Part shown: positions 16,306 through 25,535 of the stretch, piece after piece
Numbering within the stretch: position 1 is the stretch's first letter
How the letters are laid out: each line of letters opens with the position of its first letter
Virus record (IMG/VR): IMGVR_UViG_2872185964_000003
Origin: a virus
Lineage: Duplodnaviria > Heunggongvirae > Uroviricota > Caudoviricetes
Direction: 5' to 3' (one strand)
DNA length: 26,705 nucleotides
Translations under genes and position numbers: made by a program
Notes under the pieces: model-generated
What the model was told of the DNA's origin: nothing
Databases searched by the model: none
The model's input: only the letters and a program-made list of their open reading frames with translations

Positions 16306-17106
16306 TTAACCGCGCTTCGCCTTCTGCGTCGCGGTGGTTTTTCGTGTTGCAGGCTTCCGCGTTGTCTTTTTACTTTTGCTGCTTTCGTCCTGCGCCTGCT
16401 GTGCGCTGGCGTCTTCTGGTTCGGCTGCGGAATCGGCTTTTTTCAGGGCGCGGGAAAGGGTTGCAATCTCGCGTTTCACACCTGCGTTCGGGTTCAGGTG
16501 CATTGCTTCGCGCAGCAGCTTCAGTGACAGGGCCATGCTGTCCGCATCACTCAGGCCACGGCGGGCAAAGGCGCACGCTTTGCATAATTTGGCGCGCACT
16601 TCGTCCGGCATGTCCTGGTCGGTGACAATCTCCCGGAGGGTGTCCAGTGGTTCGATAAAGGCGGACAAATCCGCGTCGGCATCCGTCCCGGCCTGCGTCA
16701 GTACCGGATTACAGATTTCTTCGGTCAGTACCGTGGCAGCAGTACGGCCAAAGTTATCCGGCATGATGAGGTTGTGACGGACTACATACGCGCCGATACG
16801 CAGCGCAAGCGGAAGATCGCCACAGTCAATCGCCCACACCATCAGCGTGGCAATCACTTCATCCTGCTGCCCGCCGTCAGCCTCCAGCGTTCCCTCAATC
16901 CAGCCGGAAAAATCCGGCAACAACTCTTTTTTGATGGCGGCTTTCGCGCTTCTGGCCTGTACGCCCTTAAGCCGGGCCTGTGCCAGACGCAGACGATACA
17001 GCACCTCTTCATGCGCGGTACGCGCGGCGTGGTCCACGCCTTCATTCGCCCGGCCTGCGCGCTGTGCCATCACGTTCTGCCAGTGTTGTTGTGCAGGAGT
17101 AATCAT
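16306..17106 (-). CDS. M: Terminase small (endonuclease) subunit (P2 gpM-like), 266 aa
   Basis: Intact ORF between N and L with a basic, lysine-rich C-terminal tail. Confidence 0.8.
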   Translation of the reverse strand: MITPAQQHWQNVMAQRAGRANEGVDHAARTAHEEVLYRLRLAQARLKGVQARSAKAAIKKELLPDFSGWIEGTLEADGGQQDEVIATLMVWAIDCGDLPLALRIGAYVVRHNLIMPDNFGRTAATVLTEEICNPVLTQAGTDADADLSAFIEPLDTLREIVTDQDMPDEVRAKLCKACAFARRGLSDADSMALSLKLLREAMHLNPNAGVKREIATLSRALKKADSAAEPEDASAQQAQDESSKSKKTTRKPATRKTTATQKAKRG

Positions 17107-19085: not shown

Positions 19086-19205
19086 GATGGCAAAGCGTAA
19101 CAGGCTGATACAAAGGGCTTTTGTTGTAAGAAAACGGCCAGAACAGAGGGTTAAGGAGAACAGTTTCGCGCGCGGGTAATCTTCCTGTAATTACTCAGGG
19201 GAGCA
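19086..19205. promoter_or_regulatory. Divergent late promoter region between O (minus) and P (plus)
   Basis: 120-bp intergenic region between divergently oriented O and P, the position of the Ogr-dependent divergent late promoters in P2. Only imperfect dyads were seen (see rejected list). Confidence 0.4.
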
Positions 19206-20881
19206 ATGATTCAGGACGCTTTTGTGCGCCAGCGTGCGCGGCAACTTTACTGGCAGGGTTATCCGCCCGCAGAAATATCACGTCTGATGGGAATAAACCC
19301 GAACACGATTTATGCGTGGAAAAAACGTGACCAGTGGGATGAAACGCCACCCGGGCAGCGTGTCACGCAGTCCATCGATGCGCGCCTCATCCAGCTTACT
19401 GAAAAACAGAATAAAACAGGCGGTGACTTTAAGGAAATAGACCTGCTGACCCGGCAGCTTAAAAAGCTGCATGATGGCCAGCCGGATGTGATGGCCGCAG
19501 GAAAGAAAGGCCGGGCGAAAAAACTCAAAAATCATTTCACGCCGGAACAGATTGCTGCACTGCGGGAAAAAATCATCAGCAGGCTGGAGTGGCATCAGCG
19601 GGGCTGGTTTGACTCCCTGACCCTTTGCAGGGAAGCCGGGATACGTAACAGGATGATCCTGAAATCCCGACAGATTGGGGCGACCTGGTATTTTGCACAG
19701 GAAGCACTGCTGATGGCGCTGCGTGACGATGTGGCGCAACCTTACCAGCGTAACCAGATTTTTTTGTCTGCGTCGCGTCGTCAGGCGTTCCAGTTTAAAA
19801 GCATTATTCAGAAGGCGCGGCTGAAGTTGATGTGGAGCTGAAAGGGGGCGATAAAATCATCCTCTCCAACGGCGCAGAGCTGCATTTTCTCGGCACTTCT
19901 GCTGCGTCGGCACAGTCCTATACGGGCAATTTTTATTTTGATGAATTTTTCTGGGTCAGTCGCTTTGCTGAACTGCGCAAGGTGGCTGGCGCTATGGCAA
20001 CCCTCAGCGGACTGCGGCGCACCTACTTCTCCACGCCATCCACCGAAACGCACGAGGCATACGCCTACTGGAACGGCGACCGCTGGAACGAGAAAAAGGC
20101 CTCGCATAAACGCCAGCGTTTTTCTGTGGACTGGAAAACGCTGCATAACGGGCTTATCTGCCCTGACCGGACGTGGCGGCAAATTGTCACGCTGGAAGAT
20201 GTGGTTAATCACGGCTGGAAACACACCGATATCGACGAAATTCGTGATGAAAACACCGAAGACGAGTTCCTCAATCTCTATATGTGCGAGTTTGTCCGCG
20301 AAGGGGAATCGGCATTTAACCTGAATATCCTGATTGGCTGCGGCGTTGACGGATACGACGACTGGAAAGACTGGAAACCTTTTGCTCCCCGCCCGATGGG
20401 GAATCGTCCGGTATGGATTGGGTATGACGCAAACGGCAGCAGTGGCAACGGCGACAGCGGCGCTGTGTCCGTGGTGGTTCCTCCGTCTGTTCCTGGTGGC
20501 CGTTTTCGAACGGTGGAGACGCGACGCGTTCAGGGGCTGGAGTTTGAAGAACAGGCCAGAGTCATTGAAGAGTTCACGTGTCGCTACAACGTGGAACACA
20601 TCGGCATTGATGTGACGGGCGGGAACGGGGAGGCTGTTTATCAGATAGTGAAACGGTTTTTCCCTGCCGCTATTCCGTACACCTTCACGCTGTCATCAAA
20701 ACGGTCGCTGGTACTGAAAATGCTGCAAATAATGCGTGCCGGGCGGTGGGAATACGATCGCGCCGAACGCGAGCTGGTCGCGGCCTTTAACGCCGTGCGT
20801 AAGGTGAAAACACCGGGCGGCTTTATCACTTACGAAACGGACCGAGCGAGGGGATCAGCCACGGCGACCTTGCGTGGGTAA
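19206..20881 (+). CDS. P: Terminase large (ATPase) subunit (P2 gpP-like), apparent -1 frameshift near 19825
   Basis: ORFs 19206..19841 and 19832..20881 together span a gpP-like protein. The break is at GCGCGG, where one extra G would restore ...QKARAEVDVELKGGDKIILSNGAE.... Confidence 0.8.
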
Positions 20882-20954
20882 CCATGCTTGCTGTCATTAA
20901 CGAACCGATTGGCGGCGAAGGAGAAAACGAGCGTTTCACGGTTATGGAGTTCTG

Positions 20955-21999
20955 ATGAGCAGAAAAAATAAAAAAGTGCGCATGAGTTCACGCATTGATC
21001 TCGCTGATGCGCTCAGGAAAGAATCATCGCTCAGTGCATTCACATTTGATGGTCCTTATCGCCTGACCGGGCATGACCTGCTGGACAATATGTACTGTGC
21101 TGATAACGGGCGGTGGTATGAACCCCGGTGGACTGGTACGGTCTGGCAAGAGCTGCCCGGCAAACGTCTTGGCATCAGTCTGCGCTTTACTTTAAGCGCA
21201 ATGTATTGCTCGGTTGCTACATCCCGCACCCGCTGCTTTCCCGGTAGGATTTCTCGGCGCTGGCGCTGGACTGGTTTGTGTTCGGTAACGCATTCCTTGA
21301 GCTTCGAAGCAATATGCTCGGCGAACCGCTTAAATTACGGCACGCCCTGGCGAAATACATGCGACGCGGAAGCGATCTTGAATCATGGTGGTATGTGCAG
21401 GATGGCAAGGATGCGTTTCAGTTTCGCCCAGGCAAAGTGTGTCACCTGATGAATCCTGACATTAACCAGGAAATCTACGGCATGCCGGAATATCTCGGCG
21501 CATTACTCTCGGCCAGCCTGTCTCATTCGGCGGACATGTTCAGAAAACTGTATTACGACAACGGATCCCACGCCGGGTGCATCATCTACATCGGTGCCGC
21601 GCAGGTAAACCGCGAAAGCATGGACTCCCTGAAAGAAACGCTACAGGGTGCGCGTGGTGGTGGTGCGTTTAAAAACGTGCTCATTCATGCGCCCAACGGG
21701 GCAAAGAGGGGGTGCAAATTTTGCCGTTCCAGCAGATCACCGCAAAGGATGAGTTCATGAATGTTAAGGCGGCATCCCGTGATGATGTGCTGGCTGCGCA
21801 CCGCGTTCCGCCGCAACTGATGGGGGCGATGCCGGGTGAAAAAAGTGCGTTTGGTGATGTGGAGAAGGCCGCGCGGGTTTACGCAATTAACGAGCTGATG
21901 CCCGTCATGGAGGCCATGAAGCACATCAATGACTGGCTTGGCGAAGAGGTGATCCGCTTTAACCCTTACGCACTGTTAGACATCCAGCCCACATCCTGA
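20955..21999 (+). CDS. Q: Portal protein (P2 gpQ-like), two apparent frameshifts
   Basis: Three overlapping ORFs in three frames (20955..21449, 21278..21760, 21712..21999) together span a portal-like protein downstream of P. Confidence 0.75.
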
Positions 22000-22327
22000 C
22001 GCGCTTCGCTTGTCTGCTGCTTCGCCGGGGCATAAAAAATTTATGCCCGACTCTCCAGCTCCTGTATCAGTCAGATAATTTCACGACGCCTTCCAGTTTA
22101 TCGCCACCATCGACGGTCAGACTCTTACGCAATCCCACCGCGTTGACTGCATGTTCTCGCCGCCTCAGTGCGATTTTGACGGCCTTACCTTTCACCCCAT
22201 CAAATCAGAATCCCTCACGTATTTTTCACGCTCAGCGTGAGAAATACGGCCATTCTGTCGTGTCGCTGCGACATCGTTAAGGGAACGCTATTTACCCCCT
22301 GAAACGCGGGCTGTTCCCCCGTCACCT
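22000..22327. other. Non-coding region downstream of Q; expected position of the cos packaging site
   Basis: No convincing ORF. Contains palindromes GGGCATAAAAAATTTATGCCC (22028-22048) and CGTATTTTTCACGCTCAGCGTGAGAAATACG (22216-22250). A cos core was not positively identified. Confidence 0.25.
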
Positions 22328-22352
22328 GCGCGCAGAAAAAGCGCGTTTTTTT
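22328..22352 (+). terminator. Rho-independent terminator (plus strand)
   Basis: CGCGC-AGAAAAA-GCGCG hairpin followed by TTTTTTT. Confidence 0.45.
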
Positions 22353-22422
22353 GTGCACGCACGGATCCTTGACGGATCCAGCCGCCACGCGGGCTGGAAG
22401 GGCAAAAATTCGTTCAAAAAAA

Positions 22423-22449
22423 TTGTGCAAATTTGTGCACTATTGTGCA
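22423..22449. repeat. Three phased direct repeats of TTGTGCA at 10-bp spacing
   Basis: AATTGTGCAAATTTGTGCACTATTGTGCAG; a fourth copy lies at 22351-22357 next to the terminator. Two copies contain the GTGCAC palindrome. Confidence 0.35.
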
Positions 22450-22487
22450 GCAGGGCGATGTGCGATTATCGCCCTAGTTTGAGGGGA

Positions 22488-23077
22488 TCAGGTGTTATTT
22501 TTATCTGTCGTCAGTGGGCTAAACCATCCACAATTTACATCGCATGACTGATGCGTTCTGTCCTCGTGTTTCTCCTGCCACAATGCTTTTCCGCCAGCCT
22601 TTATGATGGCTCTTTCAACATCCCGCTCGTATCGCAAGGGCTGAAATACGTCATTAATGAAATATTCGCTTATGTCCGGAAGCGATACTGCAAAATTATT
22701 TGTTTGTTGCGCCGTCCTGCTATGCAGCAAAGCGGCATGCTTTAATGCGTCCTGTGCTTTCTGGAATTTAAGTGCATAGTCAGTGGCGATTTTTTCCAGT
22801 TCAGCGATTCGGTTGTCTTTGGTTTCCAGCCAATCAAGTAGCGCCAATACTTCAGGATCCCGACATCCAACACTGTTACGCGTGATTTTTCATAATGTTC
22901 GTCAGCAAGAGTTCGGCCAATTTTGAAATCTCCATCATCACCATAACCGGAGCAGGCATAAACAACCTGTGCTCCAGATATTCGCTGAATTGACATTTCC
23001 TCGCCGCAAATAGGGCATTTCGGTACTGGCACAGGTGAATAACGTTCACGTAATGCCTGATAGTTGATTTCGCTCAT
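22488..23077 (-). CDS. Hypothetical Zn-ribbon protein, apparent frameshift near 22885
   Basis: N-terminus MSEINYQALRERYSPVPVPKCPICGEEM...YACSGYGDD and a coiled-coil C-terminal part in a second frame. The break is at an A5 run; AAGGAG RBS upstream. Confidence 0.55.
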
Positions 23078-23140
23078 TAAGTCGTTCTCCTTGTTTATGT
23101 TCTGAGGTGGAGAGCAGGGCGAACTCGCCCTGATGTTGTG

Positions 23141-23452
23141 TTATTCAGGAAATAACGCCCGGATATTTCCGGCCATCTGACTGGTTATCTGTGCGGTTGA
23201 TACTGGCTGTGATGTGGGGCGTTCTGTCCTGGTTTGTGTCACTGATAACGCTTCATCACCAGCCCATGCAGCCAGTCGATAAGCCTCTGCCGGATTCATT
23301 TTCAGAAGTGCCAGCCCGGCCAGAAAAGCCACGCGTTGGCCGCTTTTGCGGGCTTCTGGTGTAAGGCTGTCCAGCCAGGCGCATGCTTCTCCTTCGTTCT
23401 TGACGGCGGTGGGCTTCAGATAGAAACTTATCCGTCTGGTTGGAGTCGTCAT
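23141..23452 (-). CDS. parR: ParR-like centromere-binding protein (type II partition adaptor), 103 aa
   Basis: The Met at 23452 directly follows the parM stop. RISFYLKPTAVKNEGEACAWLDSLTPEARKSGQRVAFLAGLAL resembles the ParR N-terminal RHH region. Confidence 0.6.
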   Translation of the reverse strand: MTTPTRRISFYLKPTAVKNEGEACAWLDSLTPEARKSGQRVAFLAGLALLKMNPAEAYRLAAWAGDEALSVTQTRTERPTSQPVSTAQITSQMAGNIRALFPE

Positions 23453-23456
23453 TGGT

Positions 23457-25531
<2,075 letters not shown>

Positions 25532-25535
<4 letters not shown>

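What the first reader, a model, noticed from the sequence alone, without database searches (positions are those of the whole stretch)
22000..22490. Structured non-coding region beyond Q: palindromes, a terminator and phased TTGTGCA repeats
About 490 bp without a convincing ORF contains a 21-bp palindrome (22028-22048), a roughly 35-bp imperfect palindrome (22216-22250), a terminator (22328-22352) and four TTGTGCA copies, three of them at exact 10-bp phasing (22423-22449). This is the expected location of the cos/terminase recognition region, but the phased repeats could also be an operator or iteron array.
Basis: seen in the sequence. Interest (0 to 1): 0.4.

Follow-up and report, generated by a model that had tools for sequence, protein, structure and literature searches.

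The report
Packaging (cos) site of P2-like prophage
This non-coding stretch is the DNA-packaging (cos) site of a P88/P2-family prophage, and the phased TTGTGCA repeats are a conserved outer arm of that site, most likely where the phage's packaging enzyme docks, so the feature is real but of a known kind.

Summary
All the listed features are present at the stated coordinates. The window is a P88-like (Xuanwuvirus, P2-family) prophage, and 22000-22449 lies between the portal gene Q and a variable cargo region.

Homology with P2, P4 and 186 places the cohesive-end sequence at about 22308-22328.

The three phased TTGTGCA boxes (22423-49) lie 72, 82 and 92 bp from box0. That geometry recurs in P2, P4, 186, phiCTX, RSA1 and more than 100 portal-linked loci, although the spacer sequence differs between lineages. 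The box sequence co-varies between box0 and the array: ATGCA in P2/P4/186/RSA1, GTGCA here, CTGCR in phiCTX.

P4-like satellites keep the boxes. Homology to P88 and its relatives stops at the last base of box 3, whatever cargo follows.

Best reading: an extended cos site whose four boxes are the terminase recognition arm, probably read by the small subunit gpM. Binding is inferred, not shown. Operator, iteron and terminator readings are poorly supported. The 42-aa ORF shows no coding signature, and the 31-bp palindrome remains unexplained. This is a new member of a known kind.

The parts
20953..21999 (+). Portal gene Q (context). In this window it is broken into three ORFs by single-base homopolymer deletions.
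   Evidence: It is 97.6% identical to the P88 terminase-portal-cos block.
22027..22048 (+). GC-clamped, AT-centred hairpin 28 bp after the Q stop. It occupies the position of P2 tQ and 186 tW, the terminator of the P-Q late operon. No T-run follows it on either strand.
   Evidence: I6. (the relatives have 10+10 bp). (tQ and tW annotated at the same place). (other lineages carry unrelated hairpins here, and L084 has the identical one).
22067..22195 (-). 42-aa ORF annotated as a hypothetical protein in P88-type records. Probably not a gene.
   Evidence: (variable sites 8:8:8 by codon position, one frameshifted relative). (no Pfam hit).
22218..22248 (.). 31-bp near-perfect palindrome in the Q-cos spacer; function unresolved. 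The inner core TTTTTCACGCT-C-AGCGTGAGAAA is invariant in P88-like relatives, while the outer arms are often mismatched.
   Evidence: I1. (the commonest variant, 35 loci, has outer mismatches; only a few variants are compensated).
22301..22357 (.). Homolog of the 55-bp cos core of P2-family phages: left flank, cohesive-end sequence, TGCGCGC, T-run and the first TGCA box.
   Evidence: The core is cited from Ziermann & Calendar 1990 through PMC5694545 and PMC9594776. High information content.
22308..22328 (.). Predicted cohesive-end (nicking) segment, uncertain by about 2 nt. On the - strand it reads GGTGACGGGGGAACAGCCC, a 13/19 match to the P2 cohesive end GGCGAGGCGGGGAAAGCAC.
   Evidence: Read from the sequences, and compared with the RSA1 cohesive end GGTGAGGCGGGG... 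quoted in PMC5694545. The nick positions were not measured.
22328..22352 (+). P2, P4 and 186 have an equivalent hairpin plus T-run; many relatives keep TGCGCGC and the T-run but not the hairpin.
22351..22357 (+). Box 0: TTGTGCA, about 26 bp to the right of the cohesive-end segment.
   Evidence: The equivalents are TTTTAATGCA in P2, P4, 186 and RSA1, and TTTTTCTGCA in phiCTX.
22377..22398 (.). Inverted repeat in the spacer, TCCAGCC-N8-GGCTGGA, centred 33.5 bp from box 0.
   Evidence: Unrelated inverted repeats are centred at the same +33.5 in P4, 186 and phiCTX. P2 and several other relatives have none.
22410..22422 (.). A-rich tract (TCGTTCAAAAAAA) just before the array. In relatives it reads CATCAAAAAAATTG, which resembles the IHF core but is one base off in spacing.
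   Evidence: The IHF resemblance rests on my recollection of the WATCAANNNNTTR consensus and was not tested.
22423..22449 (+). Boxes 1-3: three TTGTGCA copies at exactly 10-bp spacing, with their TGCA cores 72, 82 and 92 bp from the box 0 TGCA. This is the outer edge of the conserved cos module.
   Evidence: Homology to P88 and its relatives ends at 22449/22450.

Best explanation
Positions 22000-22449 are the Q-to-cos spacer plus the complete cos (DNA packaging) site of a P88-like, P2-family prophage.

Proposed mechanism:
- The phage terminase consists of the large subunit gpP and the small subunit gpM (gpM is encoded at 16306-17106, - strand).
- It makes staggered nicks in the GC-rich cohesive-end sequence at about 22308-22328.
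- All recognition elements lie on the side away from Q. They are one TTGTGCA box about 26 bp from the nicking segment (box 0), then a 72-bp spacer, then three more boxes at 10-bp steps.
- The four boxes would lie on roughly one face of the helix if the DNA is wrapped at about 10.3 bp per turn.
- They are proposed to be read by one phage-encoded protein, most likely an oligomer of gpM, which bends or wraps the spacer and positions gpP on the nicking site.

What is shown and what is inferred:
- Shown here: homology to characterised cos sites, conservation, fixed geometry, co-variation of box sequence, retention in satellites, and the sharp homology boundary.
- Inferred: the identity of the binding protein, the wrapping, and the exact nick positions.
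- The hairpin at 22027-48 probably ends the P-Q transcript. The hairpin plus T-run at 22328-52 may stop read-through as a side function.
For: Identity of the locus:
- The region is 92-98% identical to the equivalent region of phages P88, 520873, Chuche and P884B11, immediately after the portal gene.

Alignment with experimentally defined cos sites:
- P2, P4 and 186 show the same order as the window: cohesive end, GC hairpin, T-run, xTGCA box, spacer, three xTGCA boxes.

Fixed geometry:
- The distance from the box 0 TGCA to the array TGCAs is +72/+82/+92 in the window and its relatives.
- It is +72/+82/+94-95 in P2 and P4 and +72/+82/+91 or +95 in 186.
- It is +71/+81 in phiCTX and RSA1.
- The spacer sequences between these lineages are unrelated.

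Co-variation of box sequence:
- Box 0 and the array share the same type within a genome: ATGCA in P2/P4/186/RSA1, GTGCA here, CTGCR in phiCTX.
- P2 and P88 both infect E. coli, which argues for a phage-encoded rather than a host reader.

Conservation in loci found through the portal gene alone:
- All 75 such loci with enough downstream sequence carry the array or a degenerate version of it.
- Information content is high over the core, box 0 and the array, and falls to zero immediately after box 3.
- Among the 80 listed exact-match hits in IMG/VR, every one with enough upstream sequence (74) has a portal gene ending about 350-420 bp upstream, or about 1 kb upstream where there is an insertion.

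Satellites:
- P4 and 17 of the 18 psu-linked satellites from many genera keep the core plus three boxes; the 18th (L226) has a deletion within cos but still keeps the boxes. Everything to the left of GCGCGCA is variable in them.
- P2 and P4 are reported to share homology only at cos (PMC9122126; PMC9594776).

Small terminase subunit:
- gpM (Pfam PF05944) is only 36% identical to P2 gpM, but 55% identical to gpM of Klebsiella phage 3LV2017, which also has GTGCA boxes.

Experimental hint:
- P2/P4 cosmids with longer cos flanks transduced about 2000-fold better (0.035 against 1.7e-5; PMC9594776).
Against: - No binding, footprint or terminus data exist for this phage or its close relatives. The P88 paper does not mention cos.
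- The only record that starts inside the region (P884B11, at 22404/22405) had its first base chosen by comparison with reference genomes, not measured.
- The agreement between gpM similarity and box type follows overall phylogeny, so it is not independent evidence.
- Box sequences are degenerate in some lineages, for example L074, L079 and L080.
- The primary paper (Ziermann & Calendar 1990) could not be read. I therefore cannot say whether the outer boxes are already known to be needed, or known not to be needed.
- In P2, box 3 abuts the -35 element of the old promoter, so at least one box also has a transcriptional context.
- 72 bp equals 6.86 turns at 10.5 bp per turn. The same-face argument therefore needs over-twisted or wrapped DNA.
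Confidence: 0.7

Rival explanations
1. The phased boxes are promoter or operator elements that control the cargo genes of the adjacent variable 'hotspot'.
For: In P2, the mapped old-tin transcript starts (33424 and 33426) place a TTGAAT -35 hexamer that overlaps box 3 by one base. Each TTGTGCA begins with TTG, as a -35 element does.
Against: - In the window the neighbouring genes (22488-23077) are on the - strand and converge on the array.
- No sigma-70-like site was found in 21800-23200.
- The array is identical in front of many unrelated cargos in both orientations.
- It is retained next to psu in P4-like satellites.
- The fixed 72-bp distance to box 0 inside the cos core has no explanation under this model.
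Confidence: 0.08
2. The hairpin plus T-run elements are a pair of convergent intrinsic terminators that insulate cos from transcription, and the repeats merely build the - strand hairpin. The two elements are 22328-52 on the + strand and GTGCACAAATTTGCAC followed by T7 on the - strand (22440-22416).
For: Both sites are picked up by the terminator pattern scan. P2, P4 and 186 also have a hairpin plus T-run to the right of the cohesive end. The cargo in the window is transcribed towards cos.
Against: - The - strand stem has only 5 pairs.
- The boxes of P2, P4, 186 and phiCTX do not form such a hairpin plus T-run, yet they keep the same positions.
- Many relatives lose the + strand hairpin but keep the T-run and the TGCA.
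- This model does not explain why box 0 and the array co-vary in sequence.
- It could be a secondary function in this lineage.
Confidence: 0.1
3. The boxes are bound by a host architectural protein of the IHF or Fis type, which bends cos as IHF does at lambda cosB, rather than by the terminase itself.
For: An A-rich tract resembling an IHF core (CATCAAAAAAATTG) precedes the array in most relatives. The phiCTX record annotates IHF sites within about 300-420 bp of cos.
Against: - Box sequence differs between phages of the same host: P2 has ATGCA and P88-like phages have GTGCA, both in E. coli.
- Box sequence co-varies within each genome.
- The IHF-like match is one base off in spacing, judged against my recollection of the consensus.
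- The phiCTX IHF sites lie next to attP, which is close to cos in that phage.
- A host factor acting in the spacer in addition to gpM on the boxes remains possible.
Confidence: 0.1
4. The repeats are iterons of a replication origin or a partition site.
For: Phased direct repeats are typical of iterons. parM/parR-like genes lie 0.7-1.6 kb to the right.
Against: - The array sits at the same place in P2, 186, P4 and phiCTX. None of the cos-flank stretches retrieved for them shows a par gene.
- From my own knowledge, not tested here, P2 replication starts within gene A and P4 replication at ori/crr elsewhere in the genome.
- The array is separated from parR by unrelated, swappable cargo.
- The repeats are tied by fixed spacing to the cos core.
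Confidence: 0.02

Closest known systems
cos site of phages P2, 186 and satellite P4 (19-nt 5' cohesive ends; 55-bp conserved core, Ziermann & Calendar 1990)
   Same: - It has the same position, between portal gene Q and the variable right-end region.
- It has a homologous GC-rich cohesive-end sequence (13/19 to P2).
- It has the same order of elements: TGCGCGC-type flank, hairpin, T-run, TGCA box.
- It has three further TGCA boxes at +72/+82/+92.
   Different: - The boxes read TTGTGCA instead of (A/C)ATGCA.
- The CCCCCGTCACC segment is 2 nt shorter than CCCCGCCTCGCC, so the nick positions are uncertain by about 2 nt.
- The Q-cos spacer is about 300 bp, against about 165 bp in P2, and carries an extra palindrome.
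- gpM is only 36% identical to P2 gpM.
- The literature I could read describes only the 55-bp core, not the outer boxes.
Lambda cosB (R3-I1-R2-R1 sites for the small terminase subunit gpNu1, plus IHF)
   Same: Several repeated recognition sites lie on one side of the nicking site, one close to it and the others beyond a spacer that must bend. This describes how the region probably works. The lambda layout is from my own knowledge and is only partly echoed in PMC4669245.
   Different: - gpM belongs to Pfam PF05944, not to the gpNu1 family, and has no PDB relative.
- The box sequence, number and spacing differ.
- No convincing IHF site was found.
- P2-type terminase is reported to prefer monomeric circles (my own knowledge).
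- The region is therefore not a member of this family.
SPP1 pac region (multiple small-terminase binding boxes flanking the cut site)
   Same: Phased short repeats are bound by a ring-shaped small terminase subunit that wraps or loops DNA around the cut site (PMC4669245, supplemented by my own knowledge).
   Different: SPP1 uses headful packaging with no cohesive ends. Its boxes lie on both sides of the cut and are unrelated in sequence, and its small terminase subunit belongs to a different family.
phiCTX cos-attP region with annotated R4-R6 repeats
   Same: It is a P2-family cos site in whose GenBank record repeats spanning cos are annotated. I find CTGCR boxes there at +55/+71/+81 from a CTGCA box 0.
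   Different: The box sequence differs. attP and IHF sites lie close by. I could not check whether the annotated R repeats are the same elements as these boxes.

Membership tests
P2-family cos site | Located between the portal gene (Q) and the right-end variable region of a P2-like genome | tested here: met
   The portal gene ends at 21999. Cargo, parR/parM and the gpA-side genes follow after 22450.
P2-family cos site | GC-rich cohesive-end sequence homologous to GGCGAGGCGGGGAAAGCAC, flanked by GCGCGC-type sequence | tested here: met
   Positions 22308-22326 read GGTGACGGGGGAACAGCCC on the - strand, a 13/19 match, followed by TGCGCGC.
P2-family cos site | Conserved 55-bp core ending in a T-run plus TGCA | tested here: met
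   Alignment with P2, P4, 186 and 12 other lineages. Information content profile.
P2-family cos site | Terminase cuts here to give 19-nt 5' overhangs, and the DNA is packaged | not testable with these tools
   No terminus data exist. The start of the P884B11 record was chosen, not measured.
P2-family cos site | Cognate terminase genes (gpP large subunit, gpM small subunit) are present | tested here: met
   gpM at 16306-17106 matches PF05944. gpP at about 19202-20953 is homologous to the P88 large subunit but is frameshifted in this sequence.
Lambda-type cosB | Small terminase subunit of the gpNu1 winged-helix family | tested here: not met
   gpM matches PF05944 only.
Lambda-type cosB | IHF site between the repeats | tested here: inconclusive
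   CATCAAAAAAATTG-like tract in relatives, GTTCAAAAAAATTG in the window. The spacing is one base off my recollection of the consensus.
Operator array | Overlaps or adjoins a promoter that it regulates | tested here: not met
   No promoter-like site in 21800-23200. The neighbouring genes converge on the array. The array is independent of the cargo that follows.
Iteron origin or partition site | Linked to its Rep or Par protein gene and moves with it | tested here: not met
   The array stays with cos and the portal gene while the neighbouring genes are swapped. It is present in the cos flanks of P2, 186 and P4, where the stretches retrieved show no par genes.
Rho-independent terminator (22328-22352) | GC-rich hairpin followed by a U-run | tested here: met
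   6-pair stem, loop of 7, T7.
Rho-independent terminator (22328-22352) | Hairpin potential conserved in homologous loci | tested here: inconclusive
   Present in P2, P4, 186 and P88-like phages. Absent in many relatives that keep the T-run and the TGCA.

The most novel reading that the evidence does not exclude
All P2-family phages and their P4-like satellites share an extended cos of about 150 bp, in which four TGCA boxes at fixed positions (0, +72, +82, +92) form a wrapping platform for the small terminase subunit.

Three consequences would follow:
- The lineage-specific box sequence (ATGCA, GTGCA or CTGCR) would set which helper can package which genome or satellite.
- The box sequence would evolve independently of the cohesive-end sequence. 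Klebsiella 3LV2017-type phages, for example, combine a P2-like cohesive end with GTGCA boxes.
- The outer edge of box 3 would be the fixed recombination boundary of the anti-phage defence hotspot.

As far as I could read, the literature describes only a 55-bp core.
Probability: 0.4. Interest if true: 0.6.

Novelty: new member of a known kind. Interest (0 to 1): 0.38.

Why it matters
For this window, the result explains an apparently odd non-coding stretch as an ordinary and probably intact phage packaging site. More broadly, three points follow.

- P2/P4 cosmids are used as DNA-delivery vehicles. If boxes 1-3 are needed, a "55-bp cos" is too short, which could explain the roughly 2000-fold differences in transduction reported in PMC9594776.
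- The box sequence could be an engineerable specificity code between helper phages and satellites.
- The array gives a base-precise landmark for the start of the cos-adjacent defence hotspot described in PMC9122126.

Tried and rejected
- **P884B11 record ends (22404/22405) as a measured terminus.** Rejected: the paper says the first base was chosen relative to reference genomes.
- **Rfam search of 21800-22900.** Only a sub-threshold nadA hit outside the region.
- **RNA folding of 22000-22360 on both strands.** z-scores of -1.6 and -2.2, not decisive.
- **Coding test of the 42-aa ORF.** No codon-position bias and no Pfam hit. The 71-aa ORF 22215-22430(-) runs through the cos core and was not pursued.
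- **Covariation test of the 31-bp palindrome.** The inner part is invariant and the outer part is often mismatched. A few variants are compensated (L034, L134), but the relatives are too close to be informative.
- **Search for satellites carrying GTGCA-type cos.** All 18 psu-linked loci are of the ATGCA type. The 12.5-kb contigs with a truncated portal gene (L126, L160) look like prophage remnants carrying gpA and parM, not satellites.
- **Literature.**
  - Ziermann & Calendar 1990, the 1993 P4 review and the 2016 P2 review are not held in the library.
  - No accessible paper describes the outer boxes or the direction of P2 packaging.
- **gpM against the PDB.** No relative found.
- **K139.** The end of the record is not at cos, so it was not used.
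- **CRP-like and Ogr-like (TGT-N12-ACA) readings of the array.** Checked by eye against my recollection of these consensus sequences; the spacings do not fit.
Full report
**What the locus is.** The window carries a P2-family prophage of the P88 type (genus Xuanwuvirus).
- Positions 21900-22449 are 92-98% identical to Escherichia phages P88, 520873, Chuche, P884B11 and others. In all of them the stretch follows the portal gene (annotation).
- The block from the large terminase subunit through the portal gene to 22448 is 97.6% identical to P88.
- The portal gene Q ends at 21999 on the + strand.
- In P2 the gene order is cos-Q-P, with Q read away from... the rest of the late genes and ending next to cos. 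The space after Q is therefore where cos is expected.

**Check of the observation.**
- The 9+9 palindrome lies at 22028-48 and the 15+15 palindrome at 22218-48.
- A hairpin plus T7 lies at 22328-52.
- TTGTGCA occurs at 22351, 22423, 22433 and 22443.
- The overall count of the heptamer is not unusual (6 found, 6.25 expected). A heptamer repeated three times at a period of 9-12 bp occurs only here in the window, and never in 300 Markov simulations.
- The region has no convincing gene.
  - The 42-aa ORF 22067-22195(-), annotated as hypothetical in P88 records, has no Pfam hit.
  - Its variable sites are spread 8:8:8 over the codon positions.
- No Rfam family matches inside 22000-22490.

**Where cos is.**
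- I joined the ends of P2, P4 and 186 and turned them to the window's orientation.
  - All three read: GCGCGC-type flank, 19-nt cohesive end (GTGCTTTCCCCGCCTCGCC in P2), a GC hairpin, a T-run, AATGCA.
  - These elements together make up the 55-bp core that later papers cite from Ziermann & Calendar 1990 (PMC5694545; PMC9594776).
- The window aligns to this core at 22301-22357.
  - GGGCTGTTCCCCCGTCACC (22308-26; 13/19 to P2 on the opposite strand) is followed by TGCGCGC.
  - The CCCCCGTCACC segment is 2 nt shorter than its P2 counterpart, so I give the nicking segment as 22308-22328, uncertain by about 2 nt.
- The linear P884B11 record begins at window position 22404/22405. Its authors state that base 1 was chosen relative to reference genomes (PMC6969025), so this is not evidence for a terminus.

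**The phased repeats belong to cos.**
- Geometry.
  - In P2, P4 and 186, three further xATGCA boxes follow the core. Their TGCA cores lie +72, +82 and +91 to +95 bp from the core's TGCA.
  - In the window and its relatives the values are +72, +82 and +92.
  - Pseudomonas phage phiCTX has TGCG/TGCA at +71/+81, and Ralstonia phage RSA1 has TATGCA at +71/+81.
  - The spacer sequences of these lineages are unrelated, so the distance itself is conserved.
- Box sequence.
  - The type of box 0 and the type of the array go together: ATGCA in P2/P4/186/RSA1, GTGCA in the P88-like, Novemvirus and Reginaelenavirus lineages, CTGCR in phiCTX.
- Survey of loci.
  - Eighty IMG/VR loci were retrieved through the portal protein alone (57-100% identity). 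All 75 with enough downstream sequence show the core followed by the array or a degenerate version of it.
  - Among the 80 listed exact matches to the array in IMG/VR, the 74 with enough upstream sequence have a portal gene ending about 350-420 bp upstream, or about 1 kb upstream where an insertion is present.
  - Across 142 distinct sequences, information content is high over the core, box 0 and the array, and falls to zero at the base after box 3.
  - The matches to P88, 520873 and most other relatives end at window 22449/22450, the last base of box 3. After that point unrelated cargo follows, in either orientation.
- Satellites.
  - P4 keeps the core and the three boxes.
  - So do 17 of 18 psu-linked satellites from Citrobacter, Enterobacter, Tatumella, Photorhabdus and other genera; the 18th (L226) has a deletion within cos. 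Everything to the left of GCGCGCA differs among them.
  - P2 and P4 are reported to share only cos (PMC9122126; PMC9594776).
- Conclusion. The conserved cos module is therefore asymmetric. It extends at most about 10-30 bp to the left of the cohesive end and about 125 bp to the right.

**Most likely mechanism.**
- The layout is one box next to the nicking site and three phased boxes seven turns away. This is what is expected for a recognition arm bound by an oligomeric small terminase subunit that bends or wraps the DNA. It works like lambda cosB or the SPP1 pac boxes. The lambda and SPP1 layouts are from my own knowledge, and PMC4669245 states the multiple SPP1 sites.
- The small terminase subunit here is gpM (16306-17106, - strand; PF05944).
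  - It is 36% identical to P2 gpM.
  - It is 55% identical to gpM of Klebsiella phage 3LV2017, which has GTGCA boxes but a P2-like cohesive end.
  - That pattern fits boxes that follow gpM and a cohesive end that evolves separately. It also follows overall phylogeny, so it is weak evidence.
- Binding, wrapping, the nick positions and the direction of packaging are all inferred.
- A report that P2/P4 cosmids with longer cos flanks transduce about 2000-fold better is consistent with a need for more than the core (PMC9594776).

**Other elements of the interval.**
- The hairpin at 22027-48 sits where P2 and 186 have the annotated terminators tQ and tW. It has no T-run. It is identical in a relative whose portal protein is only 70% identical (L084).
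- The 31-bp palindrome has an invariant inner core among the close relatives, but its outer arms are often mismatched there. I cannot assign it a function.
- The spacer holds an inverted repeat (22377-83 and 22392-98) centred 33.5 bp from box 0. Unrelated inverted repeats are centred at the same offset in P4, 186 and phiCTX, but P2 has none.

**Rival readings.**
- Promoter or operator. In P2 the -35 element inferred from the mapped old transcript starts overlaps box 3 by one base. In the window, however, the neighbouring genes converge on the array, no promoter-like site was found, and the array does not depend on the cargo.
- Terminators or insulators. The - strand of the array gives a 5-pair hairpin plus T7. 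The boxes of other lineages cannot form it, yet they keep their positions.
- Host factor. An A-rich tract resembling an IHF core precedes the array, but its spacing is one base off. The lineage-specific box sequence within a single host also argues against a host reader.
- Iterons. Nothing links the array to a replication or partition gene.

**State of this copy.**
- Relative to P88, the window has six single-base deletions, all in homopolymer runs: 19197, 19815, 20849, 21120, 21697 and 22045.
  - They break the large terminase subunit and the portal gene into pieces.
  - All six are homopolymer deletions. This looks like long-read sequencing error, although real decay cannot be excluded.
- parM is interrupted at about 24062 and is followed by transposase ORFs.
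- The cos region itself differs from that of the plaque-forming phage P88 (PMC5285337) only by point changes and one of those deletions.

**Verdict.**
- The site is a new member of a known kind.
- The fixed four-box geometry and the co-varying box sequence across the whole family may not have been described. I could not read the 1990 primary paper to check this.

Noticed in passing
window 19197, 19815, 20849, 21120, 21697, 22045: There are six single-base deletions relative to phage P88, all in homopolymer runs. They split the large terminase subunit into 2 ORFs and the portal gene into 3. The pattern suggests long-read sequencing errors rather than gene decay, but decay cannot be excluded.
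   Followed up: partly
window 23457-25535: The parM-like gene loses homology to P88 at about 24062 and is followed by two ORFs with transposase (rve) domains (23995-24591 and 24645-25535). This looks like an IS insertion in the prophage's partition module.
   Followed up: partly
window 22488-23077 (- strand): The cargo next to cos is an Ead/Ea22-like protein split into two overlapping ORFs (the N-terminal half at 22742-23077, the C-terminal half at 22488-22847). This is probably another frameshift artefact. P88 carries different genes at this position, which fits the cos-adjacent variable hotspot.
   Followed up: partly
L060 (IMG/VR 2675903480_000004), about 520-720 nt after the portal stop: A second, degenerate copy of the cos right arm lies about 130 bp beyond the first array (GGCCTCGCCTGCGCGC..TTTTTGTGCA..AAAAAATTGTGAAAATTCGCTC..TTGCA). 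It looks like a remnant of recombination between two cos regions.
   Followed up: no
L226 (uncultured Enterobacteriaceae MAG, psu-linked satellite): This P4-like satellite has a cohesive-end sequence fused directly to the spacer (AATGCTTTCCGCGCCGGGGCTGG...). It has lost the hairpin, the T-run and box 0 but keeps boxes 1-3, and is probably a packaging-defective element.
   Followed up: no
L113, L121, L125, L144, L163, L168, L171 (IMG/VR): In these P88-like loci the array lies about 1046 bp after the portal gene, or about 995 bp in L113, instead of about 421 bp. This means about 570-620 bp are inserted between Q and cos, a second insertion spot on the other side of cos.
   Followed up: no
L126, L154, L160 (IMG/VR): In these contigs only the last 210 codons of the portal gene remain upstream of an intact cos and array, with unrelated ORFs further upstream. 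They appear to be truncated prophage remnants that keep cos.
   Followed up: partly
L232 (phiCTX NC_003278, 35100-35580): The GenBank record annotates 'R4, R5, R6 repeats' spanning cos and two IHF sites nearby. I could not check whether those repeats are the CTGCR boxes I see at +55/+71/+81.
   Followed up: no
L008, L052, L053, L059, L062, L065, L068, L088, L092: These Klebsiella-type relatives combine a nearly P2-like cohesive end (TTGCTCCCCCGCCTCGCC) with GTGCA-type boxes. The nicking sequence and the boxes therefore vary independently.
   Followed up: partly
window 22361-22379: ACGGATCC is directly repeated 11 bp apart (two BamHI sites) in the cos spacer, just before the inverted repeat. 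The more distant relatives do not conserve it.
   Followed up: no
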